64,000 nt of DNA from Anaeromyxobacteraceae bacterium (GTDB taxonomy: Bacteria; Myxococcota; Myxococcia; Myxococcales; Anaeromyxobacteraceae), in contig JASGHJ010000001.1 in the NCBI GenBank assembly GCA_047602405.1, forward strand, positions 1,152,001 through 1,216,000, read 5' to 3'. Position 1 is the first letter of the stretch. Every line of letters starts with the position of its first letter. The notes beneath the pieces were generated by a model. That model was not told the origin of the DNA, searched no databases, and was given only the letters and a program-made list of their open reading frames with translations. Positions 27,146 to 38,913 of this stretch are shown here, one piece after another. A program made the translations under genes and the position numbers.

Positions 27146-28510
27146 CTACTCGAAGTCGAAGGCGATGCGCTCGGCGGCGTACCCGCGCCGGAAGAGCAGC
27201 ACGAGCTGGCCGGTGCGGCGCGCCGCCAGGGCGGCCTTGTTGAAGTCGGCCACGGTCGCGATCTCGCGCGAGTTCACCTCGAGCACGAGGTCGCCCGCCA
27301 TGATCCCGGCGCCCGCCGCGGCGGAGCGCGGGGCGACCTTCTGCACGACCACCACCGTGCCGCCCTGCACCCGCTCCTGGCCGAGCGTGAGCCCCGTGCG
27401 CCGGAGCACGAGCCCGGCGACCTGGCCGGCGCCGAGCTCCACCGCCTTCACGAGCACGGTGCGCTTCTGGCCGTTCGTGGAGAGCTCCACCTTCGCGGTG
27501 CCGCCGACCGGGAGATCGCGCACGCGGAACCGGAACTCCTCGGCGCTCTCGGGCGAGAAGCCCTGCACCGCCTCGACCCGCTCGCCCTTCCGGATCCCGG
27601 CCTGCGCCGCCGGCGAGCCCGGGTCCACCGAGGTCACCGCGACGCCGCCGCGGGCGCCCTCGGCGCTGCCGGGGGGCGCGGGCAGGTCGTCGACCTGGAT
27701 GCCGAGGTAGCCCTCGCGGACCTCGCCGTGCGCGATCAGGTCCTCCGCCACGCGGCGGGCGCGGTCGATGGGGATCGCGAAGCCGATGCCGGCGCTCCGC
27801 TCGCCCAGGATCGCCGTGTTGATGCCGATGAGCCGGCCCTCGATGTCGAGGAGCGGGCCGCCCGAGTTGCCGGGGTTGATGGAGGCGTCGGTCTGCAGGA
27901 AGTCGAAGAGCTGGCGGTCGCCGCTGCGGAAGGAGCGGTTCACCGCCGAGAGCACGCCGGTGGTGACGGTGTTGGCGAGGCCGAAGGGGTTGCCGATCGC
28001 GATGACGGTCTCCCCGATGAGGAGCTCGTCGGAGCGGCCGGTGGTGACGAACGGCACGCGCTCCTTCGTCTCGAGCTTCAGCACCGCCAGGTCGGAGGAC
28101 GGATCCGCGCCGACGACCTTCGCGAGGAGCTCGCGCCCGTCGACCAGCTGCACGCGGAAGCGCGCGCCGCGCTCGACCACGTGGTTGTTCGTGAGGACGT
28201 AGCCGTCGGGCGAGACGATCACGCCCGAGCCGAGCGAGGTGACCTGGTAGCCGCGGCGGTAGCGCGGCCGCTCGAAGAGGTCGGAGAAGAGGTCGCCCGA
28301 CGAGCCGCGCGACGGCACGCGGATGCGCACGAGCTCCTCGGCGGAGACGTTGACGACCGCCGGGCGCACGCGCTCGACGGCCGCGACGACCGGGGTCCGG
28401 CGGGCCTGGGCGGGGGTCGACTCGGCGCGGGGCAGCGCCTGCGCGAGCGCGGAGGCGGGGAACAGCGCGAGCGCGGCGGCGATCGCCGCGCCGGTCGAGG
28501 AGCGCTTCAC
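27146..28510 (-). CDS. HtrA/DegQ-type serine protease with two PDZ domains
   Basis: LGSGVI, TNNHVV, DLAVL, DASINPGNSGG. True start is GTG 28510, overlapping the upstream TGA; the longer ORF in the track is a frameshift fusion. Confidence 0.92.
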   Translation of the reverse strand: MKRSSTGAAIAAALALFPASALAQALPRAESTPAQARRTPVVAAVERVRPAVVNVSAEELVRIRVPSRGSSGDLFSDLFERPRYRRGYQVTSLGSGVIVSPDGYVLTNNHVVERGARFRVQLVDGRELLAKVVGADPSSDLAVLKLETKERVPFVTTGRSDELLIGETVIAIGNPFGLANTVTTGVLSAVNRSFRSGDRQLFDFLQTDASINPGNSGGPLLDIEGRLIGINTAILGERSAGIGFAIPIDRARRVAEDLIAHGEVREGYLGIQVDDLPAPPGSAEGARGGVAVTSVDPGSPAAQAGIRKGERVEAVQGFSPESAEEFRFRVRDLPVGGTAKVELSTNGQKRTVLVKAVELGAGQVAGLVLRRTGLTLGQERVQGGTVVVVQKVAPRSAAAGAGIMAGDLVLEVNSREIATVADFNKAALAARRTGQLVLLFRRGYAAERIAFDFE

Positions 28511-28720
28511 GACTGCGCGGTGTCCTCGTCCTCGAGCTCGTCGTCCTCGTCCTCGAAGTCGTCGTCGTTCTCCATCGTCGACTCGACGGCGATCGCGCGG
28601 TCCGCGAGAATCCTCCAGCGCCTTCTGGTGCTGGGTGAACTCCTTCTCGTCGAGGAGGCCCTTCCTGAGGTACCGGTGCGAGACGCGCTTGTCGAGGTGG
28701 CGGGGGTCGATCTCAGCCAT
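28507..28720 (-). CDS. 70-aa protein with basic N-terminus and acidic tail; 1-nt insertion at ~28610
   Basis: Reads MAEIDPRHLDKRVSHRYLRKGLLDEKEF...EDLADRA...DDDFEDEDDELEDED after correcting GATTC to GATC; GGAG RBS. Confidence 0.75.
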
Positions 28721-28801: not shown

Positions 28802-29476
28802 GTGCCCGGCACCGGCCACACGCCCCCGCGCGACCGCCTGGCCCGCCTCCGCGGGCTGTACGTCATCGTCGGCGGGCGGGGCCCCGACGCCACCGCCGGG
28901 CAGGCGAGGGCCGCCCTCGAGGGTGGCGCGACCGTGCTGCAGGTCCGGGTGAAGGACGCCCCGGCGGGCGAGGTGCTCCGCGCGGCGCGCGAGGTGGTGG
29001 ACCTCGCCCGTGGCCGCGCGCTCGTCATCGTCAACGATCGCGCGGATCTGGCGGTGCTCGCCGGCGCCGACGGCGTCCACGTGGGCGACGAGGACCTGCC
29101 CCCGGCGGAGGCGCGCCGGATCGTGGGGCCGGACCTCCTCGTGGGCCGCACGTGCCGCACCGAGGCCGACGCGCGGCGCGCGCTCGACGAGGGCGCCGAT
29201 CACGTGGGGTTCGGGCCCATGTACGTGGCGCGCGCGAAGGTGGTCGACGCCCCGCCGCGGGGGCTGCCCGCGCTGCGCGCGCTCGCGGCGGCCCTGCCCG
29301 CGCCGGTCGTCGCGATCGGCGGCATCGACCTCTCGAACGTCGGCGAGATCGCCGGGGCGGGTGCCGCCTGCGCAGCGGTCATCTCCGCCGTGCTGGACGA
29401 CCCCGACCCGCGCGCCGCCGCCGCGCGCCTCGCCGCGGCGTTCGACGCGGCCCGCCCTGGAGCCAAGGCGCCATGA
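28802..29476 (+). CDS. thiE: Thiamine phosphate synthase
   Basis: LQVRVKD, VNDRADLA, DGVHVGDED, VAIGGI. Confidence 0.9.
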   Translation: MPGTGHTPPRDRLARLRGLYVIVGGRGPDATAGQARAALEGGATVLQVRVKDAPAGEVLRAAREVVDLARGRALVIVNDRADLAVLAGADGVHVGDEDLPPAEARRIVGPDLLVGRTCRTEADARRALDEGADHVGFGPMYVARAKVVDAPPRGLPALRALAAALPAPVVAIGGIDLSNVGEIAGAGAACAAVISAVLDDPDPRAAAARLAAAFDAARPGAKAP

Positions 29477-30180
29477 CCCCTCGCCCCCGCATCGGCCTCA
29501 CCCTCGACGCCGCGGAGCGCCGCTACGAGCTCCCCCGCGCGTACGCCGACGCCATCCTCGCCGCCGGGGGCCTGCCCATCCTGCTCCCGCACGCGCCCGA
29601 GACGGCGGGCGCGTACCTCGCGCTCCTCGACGGCCTCGTCGTCTCCGGCGGCGCGTTCGACGTGCCGCCCGACCTCTACGGCGAGGCCGCGCGCGCGGAG
29701 CTGGGCACCACGCGCCCGGAGCGCACCGCCTTCGAGAAGGACCTCCTCGAGGCCGCGCTCGCCGCGAACCTGCCCGTGCTCGGCGTCTGCGGGGGCATGC
29801 AGCTCCTCAACGTGGTGCGCGGCGGGACCCTCTTCCAGGACCTGCCGGCGGACACCGGCATCCGCGGCCACGAGCAGCCGCCGCCGAAGGACGTGCCGTC
29901 GCACGAGGTGCAGGTGACGCCCGGCACCGTGCTCGCCGGCATCGTCGGCGCGGCGCCACTCCAGGTGAACTCGACGCACCACCAGGCCGTGCGGGAGCCG
30001 GGCGCAGGCGTGCTGGTCTCGGGCCGCGCCGCCGACGGCGTGGTCGAGGCGATCGAGCTCCCCGACCTGCGCTTCGCGCTCGGCGTGCAGTGGCACCCCG
30101 AGGCGACGTCCCGCAACGACCCGCGCCAGGCCGCGATCTACGGGGCGCTGGTGGCCGCCTCGCGGGAGCGAGGCCGGTGA
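29473..30180 (+). CDS. Peptidase C26 / gamma-glutamyl-gamma-aminobutyrate hydrolase family protein
   Basis: LGVCGGMQLLNV, VNSTHHQAV, GVQWHPE. Confidence 0.9.
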   Translation: MTPRPRIGLTLDAAERRYELPRAYADAILAAGGLPILLPHAPETAGAYLALLDGLVVSGGAFDVPPDLYGEAARAELGTTRPERTAFEKDLLEAALAANLPVLGVCGGMQLLNVVRGGTLFQDLPADTGIRGHEQPPPKDVPSHEVQVTPGTVLAGIVGAAPLQVNSTHHQAVREPGAGVLVSGRAADGVVEAIELPDLRFALGVQWHPEATSRNDPRQAAIYGALVAASRERGR

Positions 30181-30932
30181 CGCGGCCCCGCGTCCTCGTC
30201 GTCGCCGGCCTCGACCCCACCGGCGGCGCCGGGCTCGTCGCGGACCTCGAGGCCCTCTCCGCCGTCGGGGCGACCGGCTGGGCCGTCGCCTCCGCGCTCA
30301 CCGCGCAGGGCCCCGGCGCGCTCCGGCCCGGCCGCGCGCGCGGCATCCGGCCGACCACGCCCGACTTCCTCGAGGACCAGATCGACGCGCTCCTCGGCGG
30401 CGCCGAGCGCCCCGCCGCCGTGAAGACCGGCATGCTCGGCACCGCCGCGCTCGTCGCCGCCCTCGCCGACCGCCTGCGCGCGCGCCCCTTCACCCGCGTG
30501 CCGCTCGTCGTGGATCCGGTCCTGCTCGCGACCTCCGGGCTGCCGCTCCTCGAGCGCGGCTCGGCCTCCTTCGCCGAGGTCCTCGCGCCGCTCCTCGCGC
30601 GCGCCCGCGTCGCGACGCCGAACCTGCCCGAGCTCGCGCTCCTCACCGGCCTCGACGTCTCGACCGAGGCCGCCGCCGTCCGCGCCGCGCGGCTGCTCCC
30701 GTCGAGGGCCGTCGTCGTGAAGGGCGGCCACGCCGAGGGCGAGCCCGCGGATCTGCTCGTCGAGGGCCGGAGGGTCAGCCGCCTCACCGGCCGCCGCAGG
30801 CCCGGCACGGCCCGCGGCACCGGCTGCCGGTTTGCGTCCGCGCTCGCCGGCCTGCTCGCGCGCGGCGAGCCGCTCGAGGTCGCCGCGCGCGGCGCGAAGA
30901 GGGTCGTGGAGCGGTACCTGGACGGTCGCTAA
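30177..30932 (+). CDS. thiD: Hydroxymethylpyrimidine/phosphomethylpyrimidine kinase
   Basis: AGLDPTGGAGL, VKTGML, VVDPV, TPNLPE, KGGH, GTGC. Confidence 0.9.
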   Translation: MTRPRVLVVAGLDPTGGAGLVADLEALSAVGATGWAVASALTAQGPGALRPGRARGIRPTTPDFLEDQIDALLGGAERPAAVKTGMLGTAALVAALADRLRARPFTRVPLVVDPVLLATSGLPLLERGSASFAEVLAPLLARARVATPNLPELALLTGLDVSTEAAAVRAARLLPSRAVVVKGGHAEGEPADLLVEGRRVSRLTGRRRPGTARGTGCRFASALAGLLARGEPLEVAARGAKRVVERYLDGR

Positions 30933-31342
30933 GACGCCGTCGTCCCCGTCGCGACCTTCTTCCCCGCCTTCGTCCAGCCGTCGATGCCGGCCGGCATGAT
31001 GAAGACCTTCGTGTACCCCGCCTTGACGGCCGCACGGGCCGCCTGGTGGCAGGCGTGTCAACGCTCGTTCTTGCAGTAGAAGACGAGCCGCGTCGCCTTG
31101 TCGGCGGGGAGCTTCGAGGTCGGGTCGAGCTCGCTCCAGATCGCGCCGGGCACGTGCCCCTTCGCGTAGACCTCGGGGCCGTTCACGTCGAAGATCCTGG
31201 CGTCGGGCTTGCCGACGAGCGCCTCGACCTCGTCCACCGAGAGGCTTCCGAACGGGTCGGACTCGGCCCGCGCGGCGCCGGCCACCGCGAGGAGGCCGGC
31301 GAGCGACAGCGTGAGGGTGATGCGTTGCATGAGGAGGTTCAT
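30929..31342 (-). CDS. Exported rhodanese-domain protein, probable selenoprotein (in-frame UGA at 31058-31060)
   Basis: IFDVN...GHVPGA...LVFYCKNER-UGA-HACHQAARAAVKAGYTKVFIMPAGIDGW. The rhodanese C-terminal half continues in frame to TAG at 30929. Confidence 0.85.
31019..31057 (-). promoter_or_regulatory. Bacterial SECIS-like stem-loop
   Basis: GGCGGCC-CGTGC-GGCCGTC hairpin whose GU-containing loop starts 21 nt 3' of the UGA; lower stem CGCCT/AGGCG. Confidence 0.65.
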
Positions 31343-31433
31343 GCCGCAGACATAACCGCGGCCGGGCGCCGGCGCTCGCGCGGCCGGGCGCAGCCTCGAG
31401 AGGAGGTGGAGCGGCACCTCGCCGCCCCCACCC

Positions 31434-33643: not shown

Positions 33644-36600
33644 TCACGGCCCCAGCCGGTACCGCACCGTGAGCTCCACGTAGTCGGTGGCCACCTCGCC
33701 CATGCCCGTCGCGCGGCCGCTCACGGCCGCGGGCACGAGCGCGAGGTGGAACAGCCGCTGGTCGCCCACCATGAACCGCTGCCGCTCGGCGACCGGGGTG
33801 GACCCGAGCGACGCGTCGCCCGAGAGCGTCCAGCGCAGGGTCTCGGTGGCGGACGGCGACGCGGTCGCGGAGGACGCGAGCGTGCGCCAGGCGCGGTTGT
33901 CCCAGAGCTGCAGCGAGGCGCCCGGCGTGGTCGTGCCGTTCGGCGCGCCGGTGCCGCCGCCCACCCAGGTCACGTCGAGGTCGAGCACGTCGTGGGCGCG
34001 CGTCACCTGCGCAGCGTCGAAGCTGAACGAGGCCAGCTGCCCGGGCTTCTCGTCGCCGCCCCCGTGCCACCACCAGCCGGCGAGCGAGCCCGAGGGGCCC
34101 GGGTTGATGACGCCGAAGCCGAGCCGCCGGAGCGTGTCGAAGGCGACGCCGTCGACCTGCGAGGGGACGGGCTGGCCGTCGCCATACAGATTGACCGGGA
34201 ACACCCGGGTCCACGCGGCGCCGTTCCACTCCCAGAAGTCGTGGCAGTTCACGCCGCCGTAGTCGTCGACGCAGTTGATGTTCGACACCACGGCCGCCGG
34301 CGCCCCGCCGAACAGGAGCGCGCGGTTGCGCGCGGTGTCGAAGAACATCCCCGCCCGCGTGCGCGCGGAGGGCTGCGTCGCGCTCGCCGTCCCGCCCGCG
34401 GAGAGGCGGGTCCAGGTGGTCCCGTTGAAGGACCACAGGTCGTTGAAATCGCCGCTGCCGTTGCCCCCGAAGACCAGCACCGGCGCGCCGGTGAGCCCCG
34501 TTGCGCGGGTCATGGCCGGGCCGAACCGCGCCGACGGGCCGGACGCCGGGCACGTCGCGCTCCCGGTCCAGCTGCCCGAGGTGATCTCCCAGACGTCGCA
34601 GAACTCGGTGCCGCTGCCGTTCGATTCCGCCGAAGAGCAGCGCCCCACCCGGTGACGCGCGCGTCGAGGCGGCCATCCCGAGCCAGTAGCGCGCGGCCGG
34701 GGCGGTGCCGCCGACGAGGGTCCAGTTCGAGCCATTCCAGGTGTAGCCCGTGCCGACCGGGCCGCCGGCGCTGGTGCCGCCGAACATCGCGACGACGTTC
34801 GACCCCGGGATGTACGTCGCCGCGTACTCGGAGCGGGCGCCGGGGATCGTGATCGGCGCGGCCTTCGTCCAGCGCGCGCCGTCCCAGAGCCAGGTGTCGG
34901 TGGTCGAGCCCGGGCCGAAGACCACCACCCGGTCGCGCGCGGCGTCGTAGGCCGGCGCGACGCCGCTCCCGGCCGGCGGGGCCGCCGTCGGCTCCGGGAC
35001 CGCCGTCCAGGTGGTGCCGTCCCACTCCCACTCGGTGTCGCAGAACGGGCCCACGTGGCAGTCGCCCGAGACGCTGAAGGGCACCGCGCCGCCGAAGAGG
35101 ACCGTCCTCGCCCGCTCCGGATCATAGTAGACCGACGGGCTCGAGCGCCCCATCGGGCGCGTGGCGGCGCAGGGGTTCGCGGTGCAGCCCTGCGTCCAGG
35201 TGGTGCCGTCCCACTCGAAGACGGTGTCGAGGGTGCCCGCGTTCTGCCCGCCGAAGAGGACGAGGCGCGAGCGGGCCGGGTCGTACGCCGCGCCGGCCTC
35301 CTCGCGCTGCGCCGCCGTCGCGCAGGCGCCCGTGGAGCAGCGCTGCGTCCAGGCCGCGCCGTCCCACGTCCAGGTCGCCGCGTCGTAGGCCGGGACCGCG
35401 CCGGTGTTGCCGCCGACGAGCACCACGACCTTCCGGGCGGCGTCCCACACGAGCGTGTGGCCGCTGCGGCCGGCGGGCTTCGCGGCCGTCGAGCAGGGCG
35501 CCGTCGCGCAGAGCTTCTTCCAGGAGTGGAAGTCCGTCTCCCAGAGGTCGGCGAGCTTGGTCGTGCCGGACGTGCCGCCGAACAGCAGGAGGCGCTGGCG
35601 CGCCTCGTCGTAGGCGATCGCCTGGCCGGTTCGGGCGGGCGGGTTCCCGTCGCCCTCGGGGTCGGTCATGACGAGCTTGCGCCAGGAGACACCGTCCCAC
35701 TCCCACAGGTCGGTGCCGTCCGAGAGCACCGAGGCGCCTCGGCCGCCCGCGAAGACGAGCGGCAGGTCGGACCCGAGCACCGGGTTGCCGTCGCCCTCCG
35801 GATCGGCGGGCACGGGCTTCACCCACGAGGAGCCGCGGCACGACTCCCACTGGCTGCAGTAGAAGCCGGAGTCGCAGCCGTCCCAGCCCGCGCCGCTGTA
35901 CGCCACGCGGCAGCCGCGCACCGGGTCGTGGATCATCCCGGTGCCGCCGCGCGCGCTGAGGGTCTCGAGCTTCCGGGCCGGGATCCAGTACGGCGCGCCG
36001 CGCACCGACGCGCCGGCGCCGTCCTTGCGCGACACCTGGGCCGGCGTCGCGAGCGGCTTCCCGCCGAACTGCCAGAGCGTCGGGGTCCAGGCCTCGCGCC
36101 CCTCGAACGCGTGCGGGTTCGGGAAGACGCGGCCCGGGACCTTGCCCTGGAGCGTCGCGGTCCAGGCGACGTCGCGCACGAGCGCGGCCTGCTCGCCGTT
36201 CGCGGCGCTCGCGTCGGCGTCGCTCACGTTGCCGGCGGCGTCCACCGCGGCGACGTAGAGGTCCGGCGCGTCCCCCATGAAGAGTGGAAGGGCGCCGGGT
36301 CGCCGACGTCGCCGCCGAAGCTGCCGTCCGCGGCCGCGGTGGTCCGGCCGATTCCGCGGCCGACGAGCGCGCCCTGCGCGGAGACCACGAGCGGCGCCGA
36401 GTAGGCGATGACCGTCGCGTTCGCGGGGACCGAGCCCGCCGCACCCTTCAGGAAGAACGCCTGCGCGCCGCCGGTCGCCTCGCTGCCCCACGGCACGCGG
36501 TGGAACAGGACCGCGTTCGCGGTGCCGACCGCGGGCGTGGCGGGCGTCTTCGTCGAGATCGCGACCGTGCCGAGCGACGCGTCGGCGAGGTTGCCGGCGA

Positions 36601-37405
36601 GGTCGGTGAGGTGCACCGAGAGCGGGGCGGCCCCGTCGGGCAGGCCCGCGGCGAGCGTCGCCTCGTAGACGAAGGAGAGGCCGTTGCCGGAGACCTGCGC
36701 GAAGGTCACGGCGGCGCCGCCCGAGCCGAGCGTGACGACCGGCGCGCCCGCGCCGCTCGCCACCACGAACTCGGTCGTGGCGAAGCCGATCCGCACGCCG
36801 GTGCCGACGGTGGCGGCGGTCACGTCGCGCACCGGGCTCGTCGCGGGCGGGGTGAGCGTGACGGAGACGACCGGCTTGTTCGTGGCGTCCTCCAGGATCC
36901 CGGGCGGCGTGAAGTCGAAGACCACCGCGTTGTTGGTGCTCGCCGGGGCGAGGTTGCCGGTCACGTCGGAGAGCGTCGCCACGAAGTCGGCCACGCCCTC
37001 GGGGTCGGTCGCCGGCCTCGGGACGTAGCTCGCCTCGTAGGCGTGGGTGGCGGCGTCCTTCTCGGCGATCGCGAGGGCGAGCGTCTCGCCCGACGCGCCG
37101 AAGACGAGCGTCGCGGCCGAGTCGCCGCCGAGCGCCTCGGTGGTCGTGAAGGCCACCGTGACCTGCGCGGTCGTCGCGCCCACCCGGCCCGGCGTGACGA
37201 CCGGCGAGCCCACCAGCCCGGGCGCGGTGACGTCGCCGCCCGCGCGGAAGCAGCGGCCCTGGTTCTGGCGGCACACGTAGCCGTCGGGACAGTCGGCGTC
37301 GGACGCGCACGACACCCGCGCGCCGTCGGGGAGCTTCAGGTCGGCGCTGCAGGCGGCGAGGAGGCCGGCCGCGAGCGCGGCGGCGAGCAGGGCGTTGCGG
37401 TGCAT
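33644..37405 (-). CDS. ~1250-aa surface lipoprotein with Ig-like and Kelch-like (WxWDGxxW) repeats; two compensating frameshifts (~36285, ~34625)
   Basis: MHRNALLAAALAAGLLAAC start. Three ORF-track fragments join; total span 3762 nt is a multiple of 3. Confidence 0.8.
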
Positions 37406-37497
37406 GCGGCGATGGTCCCCTGGAGTCGGAGGACGCACAACCTCCGGCGAGGGACGCACCGGGTCGTACGCCCCGTCGGGGGCTGCAGCACGGACCG

Positions 37498-38913
37498 CTA
37501 CCCGTCGCGCCGCTTCTCCATCTCCGCGAAGTACGTCGTCGTCTTCATGAAGACGAGCGGGATGGTGCCGACCGGGCCCTGGCGCTGCTTCGCGACGATG
37601 AGCTGGACCTCCTGGGTCTCGCTCTGCTGCTGGGGCTGGCCGTCCTTCGACTCCTCCTCCTGGCGGTGGAGGAACATGACGACGTCGGCGTCCTGCTCGA
37701 TGGCGCCCGACTCGCGGAGGTCGGAGAGCATCGGCGGCTCGCCCTTGCGCTTCTCGACGCCTCGGTTGAGCTGCGAGAGCGCGATGATCGGGCACTCGAG
37801 CTCCTTCGCGAGCCCCTTCAGGGAGCGCGAGATGGTCGCGATCTCCTGCTCGCGCGACTGGTTCTGCCGGTCGGAGGGCGCGTGCATGAGCTGGAGGTAG
37901 TCGATGCAGACGAGGTCGAGGCCGCCGTTCTCGCGCTTGAGCTTGCGGCACTTCGAGCGGAGCTCGACCGGGGTGAGCACGAAGTTGTCGTCGAGCCACA
38001 TGCTCGCCCCGCCGACCTTGTCGGCGTGGGTCGCGATCTTCTGCCAGTCGTAGGTCGAGAGCTGGCCGGCCGAGAGCCGCCGCCAGTCGAGCTTCGCCTC
38101 GGACGCGAGCATGCGGAGCGCGAGCTGGTCGGACGGCATCTCCAGCGAGAAGAACGCGACCTTCTTCCCGTGCTTCGTGGCCGCGTGGGTCGCGATGTTG
38201 AGCGCGAAGGCGGTCTTGCCGACCGAGGGGCGGGCGGCGAGCACGATGAGCGCGCCGGGCTGCAGCCCGAGCGTGTTCTTGTCGAGCGTCGGGATGCCGG
38301 TCGGGACGCCGGTGATCGGCGAGAGGCCCGACTGCACCCGCTTCTGGACGGCCTCGAGGTTCTCGAGGGCCTTCATCACCGGCTCGGAGATCTTCCGCAG
38401 CGTCTCGGACGAGCTGCCCTGGCCGGCGCTGAAGACCTCCTGCTGGGACGAGTCCAGGTAGTGCTGGACGTTGGTGCCCGACTCGTAGCCCCGCTCCACC
38501 ACCTGCTGGGCGGTGAGCATCATCTTGCGGAGCTGCGAGAGCTCGCGCACCGTCCGGGCGTAGTGGCGGATGTTGGCGGTCGTGCCGATGGCGCGGGCGA
38601 GCGAGAGCGGCAGCTCGCGCGGGACCGCCCCGCCGAGGAGCCCCTTCGCGTCGAGCCGCTGCTGCACCAGGATCGGATCGATCGCCTTCGACTCCTTGGC
38701 GAGCTCCTCGCACACCGAGTAAACGTGCTGGTGCGCCATCAGGTAGAAGTCGCCCGAGCGCAGCTCGGCCGCCACCTGGTCGAACGCGGTCTCCTCGGTC
38801 AGGATCGCGCCGAGCACGGCCTGCTCGGCGTCGACGCTGTGGGGGAGATCCCGGCCGGTCCGGAGGGAAACGGGCGCTTCTGGCGCGCGGCGGGCGGGGT
38901 CCTGATCGGCCAT
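37498..38913 (-). CDS. dnaB: Replicative DNA helicase
   Basis: PHSVDAEQAVLG, AARPSVGKT, FSLEM, IDYLQL, DLRESGAIEQDAD. Confidence 0.97.
   Translation of the reverse strand: MADQDPARRAPEAPVSLRTGRDLPHSVDAEQAVLGAILTEETAFDQVAAELRSGDFYLMAHQHVYSVCEELAKESKAIDPILVQQRLDAKGLLGGAVPRELPLSLARAIGTTANIRHYARTVRELSQLRKMMLTAQQVVERGYESGTNVQHYLDSSQQEVFSAGQGSSSETLRKISEPVMKALENLEAVQKRVQSGLSPITGVPTGIPTLDKNTLGLQPGALIVLAARPSVGKTAFALNIATHAATKHGKKVAFFSLEMPSDQLALRMLASEAKLDWRRLSAGQLSTYDWQKIATHADKVGGASMWLDDNFVLTPVELRSKCRKLKRENGGLDLVCIDYLQLMHAPSDRQNQSREQEIATISRSLKGLAKELECPIIALSQLNRGVEKRKGEPPMLSDLRESGAIEQDADVVMFLHRQEEESKDGQPQQQSETQEVQLIVAKQRQGPVGTIPLVFMKTTTYFAEMEKRRDG

What the first reader, a model, noticed from the sequence alone, without database searches (positions are those of the whole stretch)
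30929..31342. Hidden selenoprotein: exported rhodanese with a C-x4-U-x2-C active-site loop and SECIS
Seen: the ORF track stops at UGA 31058-31060, but the frame continues for 42 more sense codons that complete the rhodanese fold (AARAAVKAGYTKVFIMPAGIDGW) up to TAG 30929. The UGA sits in the active-site loop FYCKNER-U-HAC, forming a UxxC motif five residues after the catalytic-position Cys. A hairpin with a GU-containing loop begins 21 nt downstream. Established: this geometry matches bacterial SECIS elements, and rhodanese-like selenoproteins are known in deltaproteobacteria. Inference: a signal-peptide-bearing sulfur/selenium transferase with a redox UxxC.
Basis: partly seen in the sequence, partly recalled or inferred. 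Interest (0 to 1): 0.7.

Follow-up and report, generated by a model that had tools for sequence, protein, structure and literature searches.

The report
Hidden selenium-containing rhodanese of myxobacteria
A gene that databases cut short at a stop codon is very likely read through with the rare amino acid selenocysteine, giving a small, likely exported sulfur-handling enzyme; it is a single-domain variant of a selenoprotein type already predicted in other bacteria.

Summary
Confirmed. The frame reads 137 codons with TGA at 95; the model folds as a rhodanese with Cys90 at the catalytic position. Of 151 distinct homologous loci, 106 have TGA and 45 Cys at that codon, nothing else; a SECIS-type hairpin follows 105 of 106 TGA versus 2 of 45 Cys codons, with compensatory changes. 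The genome has selA, selB, selD and tRNA-Sec. The hairpin and open frame alone are weak (49% and 44% of random TGAs pass). The Sec position is known: the catalogued 'rhodanese-like form 1' (UxxS, WP_010941598.1) has the same C-x4-U loop, but in a multi-domain protein of over 400 residues. New here: a stand-alone, mainly Myxococcota subfamily, truncated in three RefSeq records, and a UxxC-H subclade. Cys98 is Ser in 47 of 106 Sec forms, so the conserved pair is Cys90/Sec95. Likely role (inferred): periplasmic persulfide carrier-reductase with a built-in selenol. Long shot: UxxCH binds heme c through selenium. The scan noted this before only on this same DNA.

The parts
30929..31342 (-). Full gene, 137 codons with UGA read as Sec, ending at TAG
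   Evidence: homologs end 33-55 codons after the same codon
31265..31342 (-). Predicted signal peptide, residues 1-26 (basic residue, hydrophobic stretch, A-R-A end); judged by eye, no SignalP here
   Evidence: sequence; low pLDDT for residues 1-27; hydrophobic N-terminal stretch in 148 of 151 homologs by a crude heuristic, lipobox-like in 61
30968..31240 (-). Rhodanese domain, residues 35-125
   Evidence: PF00581 E 2.5e-15; model pLDDT 88.9; GlpE 1gmx Z 15.9, rmsd 2.5 over 105 residues
31073..31075 (-). Cys90, catalytic-position cysteine
   Evidence: aligns with the loop Cys of YgaP; Cys in 151 of 151 loci (the pattern allowed Cys or Sec there)
31058..31060 (-). UGA codon 95, predicted selenocysteine
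   Evidence: TGA in 106, TGC/TGT in 45 of 151 distinct loci
31046..31051 (-). Cys98-His99, completing U-x-x-C-H at the start of helix 97-107
   Evidence: His follows in 107 of 107 sequences with Cys98; DSSP of model
31025..31043 (-). bSECIS upper stem (7 bp) and CGUGC loop (31036-31032); a weaker lower stem may extend to 31056/31015
30929..30932 (.). 4-nt tail-to-tail overlap of the TAG with the TAA of the convergent thiD-like gene
   Evidence: sequence; PF08543 on 30177-30929

Best explanation
The gene encodes a single-domain rhodanese whose conserved UGA codon 95 is very likely decoded as selenocysteine, and the likely exported protein is predicted to act as a periplasmic sulfane-sulfur carrier and reductase. 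Shown: reading frame, Cys/TGA alternation, conserved covarying hairpin, Sec machinery, rhodanese fold of the model. Inferred steps: (1) SelB bound to the hairpin inserts Sec at 95; (2) the signal peptide sends the protein to the periplasm; (3) Cys90 takes a sulfur atom from a donor such as polysulfide or thiosulfate and forms a persulfide, as rhodaneses do; (4) the selenolate of Sec95, held five residues on in a loop two residues longer than the usual one, attacks that persulfide as a built-in thiol acceptor, releasing sulfide and leaving a Cys90-Sec95 bond; (5) in this subclade Cys98 can take over the bond (Sec95-Cys98 at the helix start) and (6) a periplasmic DsbD-fed reductant resets it. 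Odds: Sec recoding about 0.97; export about 0.9; this mechanism about 0.5.
For: Recoding: 106 TGA / 45 Cys / 0 other of 151 distinct loci; of 113 database hits 65 have Cys there, 36 end exactly before it, 12 distant ones lack both Cys; hairpin 105 of 106 vs 2 of 45, 96.8% cells paired, 13 cells with two-sided changes, 0 of 500 shuffles as high; selA, selB, selD with its own UGA, tRNA-Sec; selA in 51 of 54 genomes with a TGA-type gene versus 25 of 51 with Cys-type only (G043 reassigned; kin not independent). Mechanism: Cys90 invariant at the catalytic position; loop residues 91-94 variable with no conserved basic residue; a dithiol acceptor turns a rhodanese persulfide into sulfide plus disulfide (PMC2593051, passages); a rhodanese-DsbD fusion selenoprotein with a UxxxxU motif is catalogued (PMC13188914 table) and its model is hit by 65 of 65 alignment members below cut-off; G000 has a separate gene matching the DsbD-like part (C1:2019619-2020830).
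Against: No activity, expression or selenium data: no RNA holder was listed. No conserved gene neighbourhood points to sulfur metabolism. The subfamily replaces the usual D-x-R with D-x-N (97-100%) and lacks conserved loop arginines, so thiosulfate may not be a substrate. The distances between Cys90, Sec95 and Cys98 could not be measured (model coordinates not available). That UxxxxU of TsoB is the same pair of positions is inferred from spacing, not aligned here.
Confidence: 0.5

Rival explanations
1. A periplasmic thiol-disulfide oxidoreductase or peroxide/metal scavenger built on a rhodanese fold: the UxxC/UxxS at the start of a helix works as in thioredoxin-fold proteins and no sulfur atom is transferred.
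For: U-x-x-C/S sits at the N-terminus of helix 97-107; Cys/Ser alternation at 98 resembles CxxC/CxxS redox families (recalled); D-x-N and no conserved basic loop residue.
Against: Cys90 at the rhodanese catalytic position is as invariant as Sec/Cys95; best structural matches are sulfurtransferases.
Confidence: 0.24
2. A plain sulfur or selenium carrier: Cys90 or Sec95 holds a sulfane sulfur or selenium atom and hands it to another periplasmic protein without reducing it.
For: PspE is a periplasmic single-domain rhodanese that stores sulfur on its Cys (PMC2593051); rhodaneses form perselenides (title seen in a reference list).
Against: A second, invariant thiol/selenol next to the persulfide would tend to discharge it; no partner gene is conserved nearby.
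Confidence: 0.15
3. In the Cys98 subclade U/C-x-x-C-H is a heme c attachment site (or, with Cys90, a metal site), making a rhodanese-heme hybrid with a selenoether link.
For: Motif matches CxxCH in an exported protein; His99 in 107 of 107 sequences with Cys98 versus 50 of 76 Cys-type sequences with Ser/Ala98; three cytochrome c assembly genes in the genome.
Against: His99 is also in 45 of 47 UxxS forms, so it predates Cys98 and the contrast is clade-confounded; keeping a costly Sec only to lock it in a thioether-like bond is hard to explain; the fold shows no heme-protein match; DsbC carries CxxCH without heme (recalled).
Confidence: 0.06
4. A Cdc25-like phosphatase or arsenate reductase.
For: Same fold superfamily and a lengthened loop; weak hit to 1t3k (E 4.8e-5).
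Against: The C-x5-R arginine (recalled motif) is absent: position 96 is mostly M, H, G, T or S.
Confidence: 0.03
5. The UGA is a real stop (94-residue product or pseudogene) or a sequencing error.
For: Public records end there; hairpin and open frame are common by chance here; one homolog, L113, has TGA without a hairpin.
Against: Only TGA, never TAA/TAG, in 106 loci; downstream protein conserved with invariant G109, G119, W123; stop would delete half of the fold; independent contigs agree.
Confidence: 0.02

Closest known systems
Rhodanese-like domain-containing selenoprotein form 1 (PF00581, UxxS; representative WP_010941598.1; PMC13188914 Table 1)
   Same: Sec five residues after the catalytic-position Cys: the representative reads FYC-x4-U-x2-S (deep-Sep supplement file 3); N-terminal export-like sequence; predicted only. 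A Cys version of that architecture (L233) is hit by our profile (E 2.5e-23) and by P0001 (43% over 49 residues).
   Different: Form 1 examples seen are 260 to over 400 residues with several rhodanese domains; this one is a lone 137-residue domain with D-x-N for D-x-R, and Cys-His instead of Ser at +3/+4.
TsoB, rhodanese/DsbD fusion selenoprotein (NF045694; 'form 5', UxxxxU)
   Same: Rhodanese domain with two chalcogen residues four apart; domain-level hit E 2.2e-10.
   Different: 39 bits against a cut-off of 805; no DsbD fusion; Cys rather than Sec at 90; none over cut-off in 301 genomes.
Rhodanese selenoproteins forms 2, 3, 4 (YUxxG; LYCAU, NF041203; SseA-like)
   Same: Rhodanese fold with Sec in the active-site loop.
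   Different: Sec is at the catalytic position (forms 2, 4) or +2 (form 3), not +5; NF041203 35 bits against 115.
E. coli PspE / GlpE / YgaP single-domain sulfurtransferases
   Same: Fold (GlpE Z 15.9), catalytic-position Cys, periplasmic location as for PspE.
   Different: One Cys only and a loop one to two residues shorter; no Sec.

Membership tests
Bacterial selenoprotein | In-frame UGA aligned with Cys in homologs | tested here: met
   106 TGA, 45 Cys of 151 loci
Bacterial selenoprotein | bSECIS: loop 3-9 nt, G in first two loop positions, 16-37 nt spacing, stem 4-16 bp, MFE at most -7.5 (PMC13188914 Fig. 2 legend) | tested here: met
   5-nt loop CGUGC, spacing 21, 7 bp, -13.3 to -13.9 kcal/mol; conserved with covariation
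Bacterial selenoprotein | selA, selB, selC, selD in the genome | tested here: met
   each over its cut-off
Bacterial selenoprotein | Selenium shown in the protein | not testable with these tools
   needs 75Se or mass spectrometry
Rhodanese (PF00581) | Domain score over cut-off and fold | tested here: met
   57.2 vs 22.2 bits
Rhodanese (PF00581) | Catalytic Cys at first loop position | tested here: met
   Cys90 aligns with YgaP loop Cys
Rhodanese (PF00581) | Sulfurtransferase activity via persulfide | not testable with these tools
   no assay
Rhodanese-like selenoprotein form 1 | Sec at +5 from the catalytic Cys | tested here: met
   by-eye comparison with the representative
Rhodanese-like selenoprotein form 1 | UxxS motif | tested here: not met
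   UxxC here; UxxS in 47 of 106 Sec-type relatives
Rhodanese-like selenoprotein form 1 | Multi-domain architecture of the representative | tested here: not met
   single domain, stop after residue 137
TsoB (NF045694) | Score over 805 bits, DsbD fusion, two Sec | tested here: not met
   39 bits, no fusion, one Sec
LYCAU rhodanese (NF041203) | CxU motif, score over 115 bits | tested here: not met
   34.8 bits; C-x4-U
c-type cytochrome | CxxCH motif in an exported protein, maturation genes present | tested here: met
   U-H-A-C-H
c-type cytochrome | Heme-binding fold | tested here: inconclusive
   listed matches are rhodaneses; absence from the list excludes nothing
c-type cytochrome | Covalent heme | not testable with these tools
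   needs spectra or heme stain
Cdc25-like phosphatase / arsenate reductase | C-x5-R loop (recalled) | tested here: not met
   no Arg at 96 among the common residues

The most novel reading that the evidence does not exclude
The Cys98 subclade has turned its Sec loop into a U-x-x-C-H heme c attachment site: a natural cytochrome-like protein with heme bound through selenocysteine, on a rhodanese scaffold, with Cys90 beside the heme doing sulfur chemistry. His99 is present in 107 of 107 sequences with Cys98, the protein is likely exported and the genome has cytochrome c assembly genes.
Probability: 0.05. Interest if true: 0.85.

Novelty: new variant of a known kind. Interest (0 to 1): 0.36.

Why it matters
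It fixes a systematic annotation error: 36 of 113 database hits, among them three RefSeq Anaeromyxobacter records, stop just before the Sec, and no NCBIfam model names the subfamily. It adds a widespread selenoprotein to Myxococcota. At about 111 mature residues, with natural U/C and C/S variants, it is a much handier protein than the multi-domain form 1 for asking what a selenol beside a rhodanese persulfide does, which is untested in the papers seen. The recoding principle and the Sec position are already catalogued, so surprise is modest unless the UxxCH motif binds heme.

Tried and rejected
Hairpin stability as evidence: rejected, no better than shuffles and common after random TGAs. Gene neighbourhood: 81 regions clustered; only clade-level synteny (OPT transporter, thiC-enolase, dnaB, citrate synthase), here thiE/peptidase C26/thiD convergent and a Vgb-like gene upstream that G010 lacks; no functional lead. 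Expression: no RNA holder listed; no evidence either way. Promoter/terminator scan: none found. TsoB in relatives: 0 of 301 over cut-off. NCBIfam: no family over cut-off for P0001. Tree (quick method, 106 columns, position 98 left in): all 59 UxxC and 8 CxxC rows lie in one 74-row group (SH-aLRT 92, unstarred) among UxxS rows; too weak for direction of change. Structure search lists held only rhodanese-fold proteins; this excludes nothing. Literature: ten searches found no description of a single-domain or UxxC form; Haft and Tolstoy 2025 was not held, Zhang and Gladyshev 2005 was not read, the Olavius supplement was unavailable, so those may already cover it. No search was made for Sec-linked heme. 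The Atlas look-up gave no result. No complex prediction was run since no binding is claimed.

Full report
Observation. The minus-strand frame from ATG 31342 to TAG 30929 has 137 codons and one internal TGA, codon 95 at 31060-31058, followed by 42 sense codons. The loop reads FYC90-KNER-U95-HA-C98-H99. Pfam Rhodanese covers residues 35-125, across the TGA. Downstream RNA folds into a 7-bp stem closing a CGUGC loop that begins after 21 nt; this meets every published bSECIS constraint (PMC13188914, figure legend seen). The TAG overlaps the TAA of the convergent thiD-like gene by 4 nt.

Chance. In this 74% GC genome these local features prove little. The hairpin is not more stable than shuffles. 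Of 700 TGA triplets sampled from 89,127, 346 passed my bSECIS-like test, 169 with G[G/U], 310 had 42 or more open codons and 72 had both.

Conservation. I examined 180 loci; 29 were duplicates, leaving 151. Codon 95 is TGA in 106 and TGC/TGT in 45, never anything else; Cys90 is in all. The sample is not unbiased: one of the two patterns required Cys at 95, and I chose regions by their stop annotation. Of 113 protein hits, 65 have Cys at 95, 36 end exactly before it and 12 distant ones lack both cysteines. The same 7-bp stem is complete in 63 of 106 TGA genes and 0 of 45 Cys genes; many other TGA genes use a shifted register, and a register-free test, written after seeing the data but following the published limits, passes 105 of 106 versus 2 of 45. 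In 22 aligned TGA genes 96.8% of stem cells pair and 13 cells change on both sides, some with amino-acid changes; 0 of 500 shuffles reach this, though relatedness inflates such scores. Contigs of a close relative in 4 of 4 runs cover the TGA without difference.

Machinery. tRNA-Sec (C2:1906940, 76.7 bits), selA, selB and selD, the last with its own in-frame TGA, are present. selA was found in 51 of 55 genomes sent as TGA-type and 25 of 50 sent as Cys-type (105 of 117 listed genomes were sent). G043 proved to have only Cys copies (L026, L154), giving 51 of 54 and 25 of 51. The three TGA-type genomes without a selA match are 82, 89 and 96% complete; three of the 54 (G228, G249, G078) were not checked for TGA position. 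Kin are not independent.

Protein. The model (pLDDT 88.9) has strand 85-89, loop, helix 97-107 and matches sulfurtransferases (GlpE Z 15.9, rmsd 2.5 over 105). Cys90 aligns with the loop Cys of YgaP; the loop is one to two residues longer than in solved relatives. Residues 1-26 look like a cleavable signal peptide; 148 of 151 homologs have a hydrophobic N-terminal stretch and 61 a lipobox-like motif by a crude heuristic that can over-call. Position 98 is Cys in 59 and Ser in 47 of the Sec genes, and Ser 32, Cys 8, Ala 5 in the Cys genes, so Cys90 with Sec/Cys95 is the fixed pair. The Cys98 forms group together in a weakly supported tree. The subfamily has D-x-N where rhodaneses usually have D-x-R, and residues 91-94 vary. 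Neighbourhoods are not conserved.

How it likely works. Inferred: SelB reads the hairpin; the protein is exported; Cys90 accepts sulfane sulfur; Sec95 acts as an internal acceptor. With an external dithiol a rhodanese persulfide yields sulfide and a disulfide (PMC2593051, passages); here the dithiol is built in. Cys98 could shift the bond to an exposed U-x-x-C at the helix start, and a DsbD-type system could reset it: the catalogued TsoB fuses a UxxxxU rhodanese to DsbD, and G000 has a separate gene matching that DsbD-like part. Against: no assay, no expression data, no genetic link, no measured distances. I put this at 0.5, a thiol-disulfide redox role at 0.24, a plain S/Se carrier at 0.15, heme or metal binding at 0.06, phosphatase/arsenate reductase at 0.03 and a true stop at 0.02.

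The UxxCH point. U-H-A-C-H is formally a CxxCH heme c motif, and natural Cys forms read CxACH. His99 follows in 107 of 107 sequences with Cys98 but in 50 of 76 Cys-type sequences with Ser or Ala at 98, and three cytochrome c assembly genes are in the genome. But His is also in 45 of 47 UxxS forms, the contrast follows clades, and DsbC has CxxCH without heme (recalled). It stays a long shot that a simple experiment settles.

Comparison with what is known. The 2026 inventory lists five rhodanese selenoprotein forms: UxxS, UxxG, CxU, UxxG and UxxxxU (PMC13188914, passages and section 7 part 1 of 3). The form 1 representative WP_010941598.1 reads FYC-x4-U-x2-S in a protein of over 400 residues (PMC12013277, supplement files 1 and 3, passages): the same Sec position. 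A Cys version of that architecture in a relative (L233) is hit by our profile and protein. So this works like, and descends from the same group as, form 1, but fails its UxxS motif and architecture. No NCBIfam family reaches cut-off. RefSeq records WP_248344582.1, WP_248359709.1 and WP_242334996.1 end before the Sec; a 2006 list for A. dehalogenans names no rhodanese (PMC1794560, passages), while the named record L176 (Anaeromyxobacter sp. PSR-1) carries the UxxS form. [quoted passage not shown] Also seen as passages only: PMC1976440, PMC9312934, PMC5877670, PMC13510729, PMC1914089, PMC11284452, PMC13047784. Not seen: Haft and Tolstoy 2025, Zhang and Gladyshev 2005, the Olavius supplement; they may bear on novelty.

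Verdict. A real, very likely selenoprotein gene; a single-domain, UxxC-bearing variant of a catalogued kind; useful for annotation and as a small test protein. Interest 0.36.

Noticed in passing
G000 C2:257287, C2:776837, C2:3601568, C1:1570133, C2:707865, C2:2215535: Other in-frame TGA genes with hairpins in this genome: SelD, two formate-dehydrogenase-like (UH), two peroxiredoxin-like (TxxU) and one Prx-like (labels recalled from motifs). The crude scan gave 16 candidates, most of the rest likely chance.
   Followed up: partly
L243, L245, L242, L050-L052, L229, L236, L238, L239: Further Sec-at-+5 rhodanese paralogs in relatives: two-domain forms, a separate single-domain clade, and a second copy in G010; each followed by a hairpin.
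   Followed up: partly
L113 (G276:C1:6138300-6139150): TGA at position 95 without a SECIS-type hairpin; possibly a decaying gene or a non-canonical element.
   Followed up: no
P0098, P0101, P0102, P0106-P0114: A related exported rhodanese family with Ser/Gly in place of both cysteines, probably catalytically inactive.
   Followed up: no
window 33644-37525, minus strand: What looks like one very large lipoprotein gene with Ig-like and Kelch repeats is spread over three frames, suggesting two frameshifts or assembly errors.
   Followed up: no
window 28507-28720, minus strand: A small acidic ORF upstream of the DegP-like protease appears frameshifted, its start running into the protease frame.
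   Followed up: no
window 31343-31362: No ribosome-binding site before the ATG; a TATG lies 9-12 nt upstream here and in G010, which might mark a leaderless transcript; the consensus promoter scan found nothing. The true start could also be the Met at residue 5.
   Followed up: partly
window 28871-30932 and L138, L139, L141, L155, L176: The gene abuts thiD here and thiC in other Anaeromyxobacteraceae, both tail to tail; other clades have unrelated neighbours, so a thiamine link is unsupported.
   Followed up: partly
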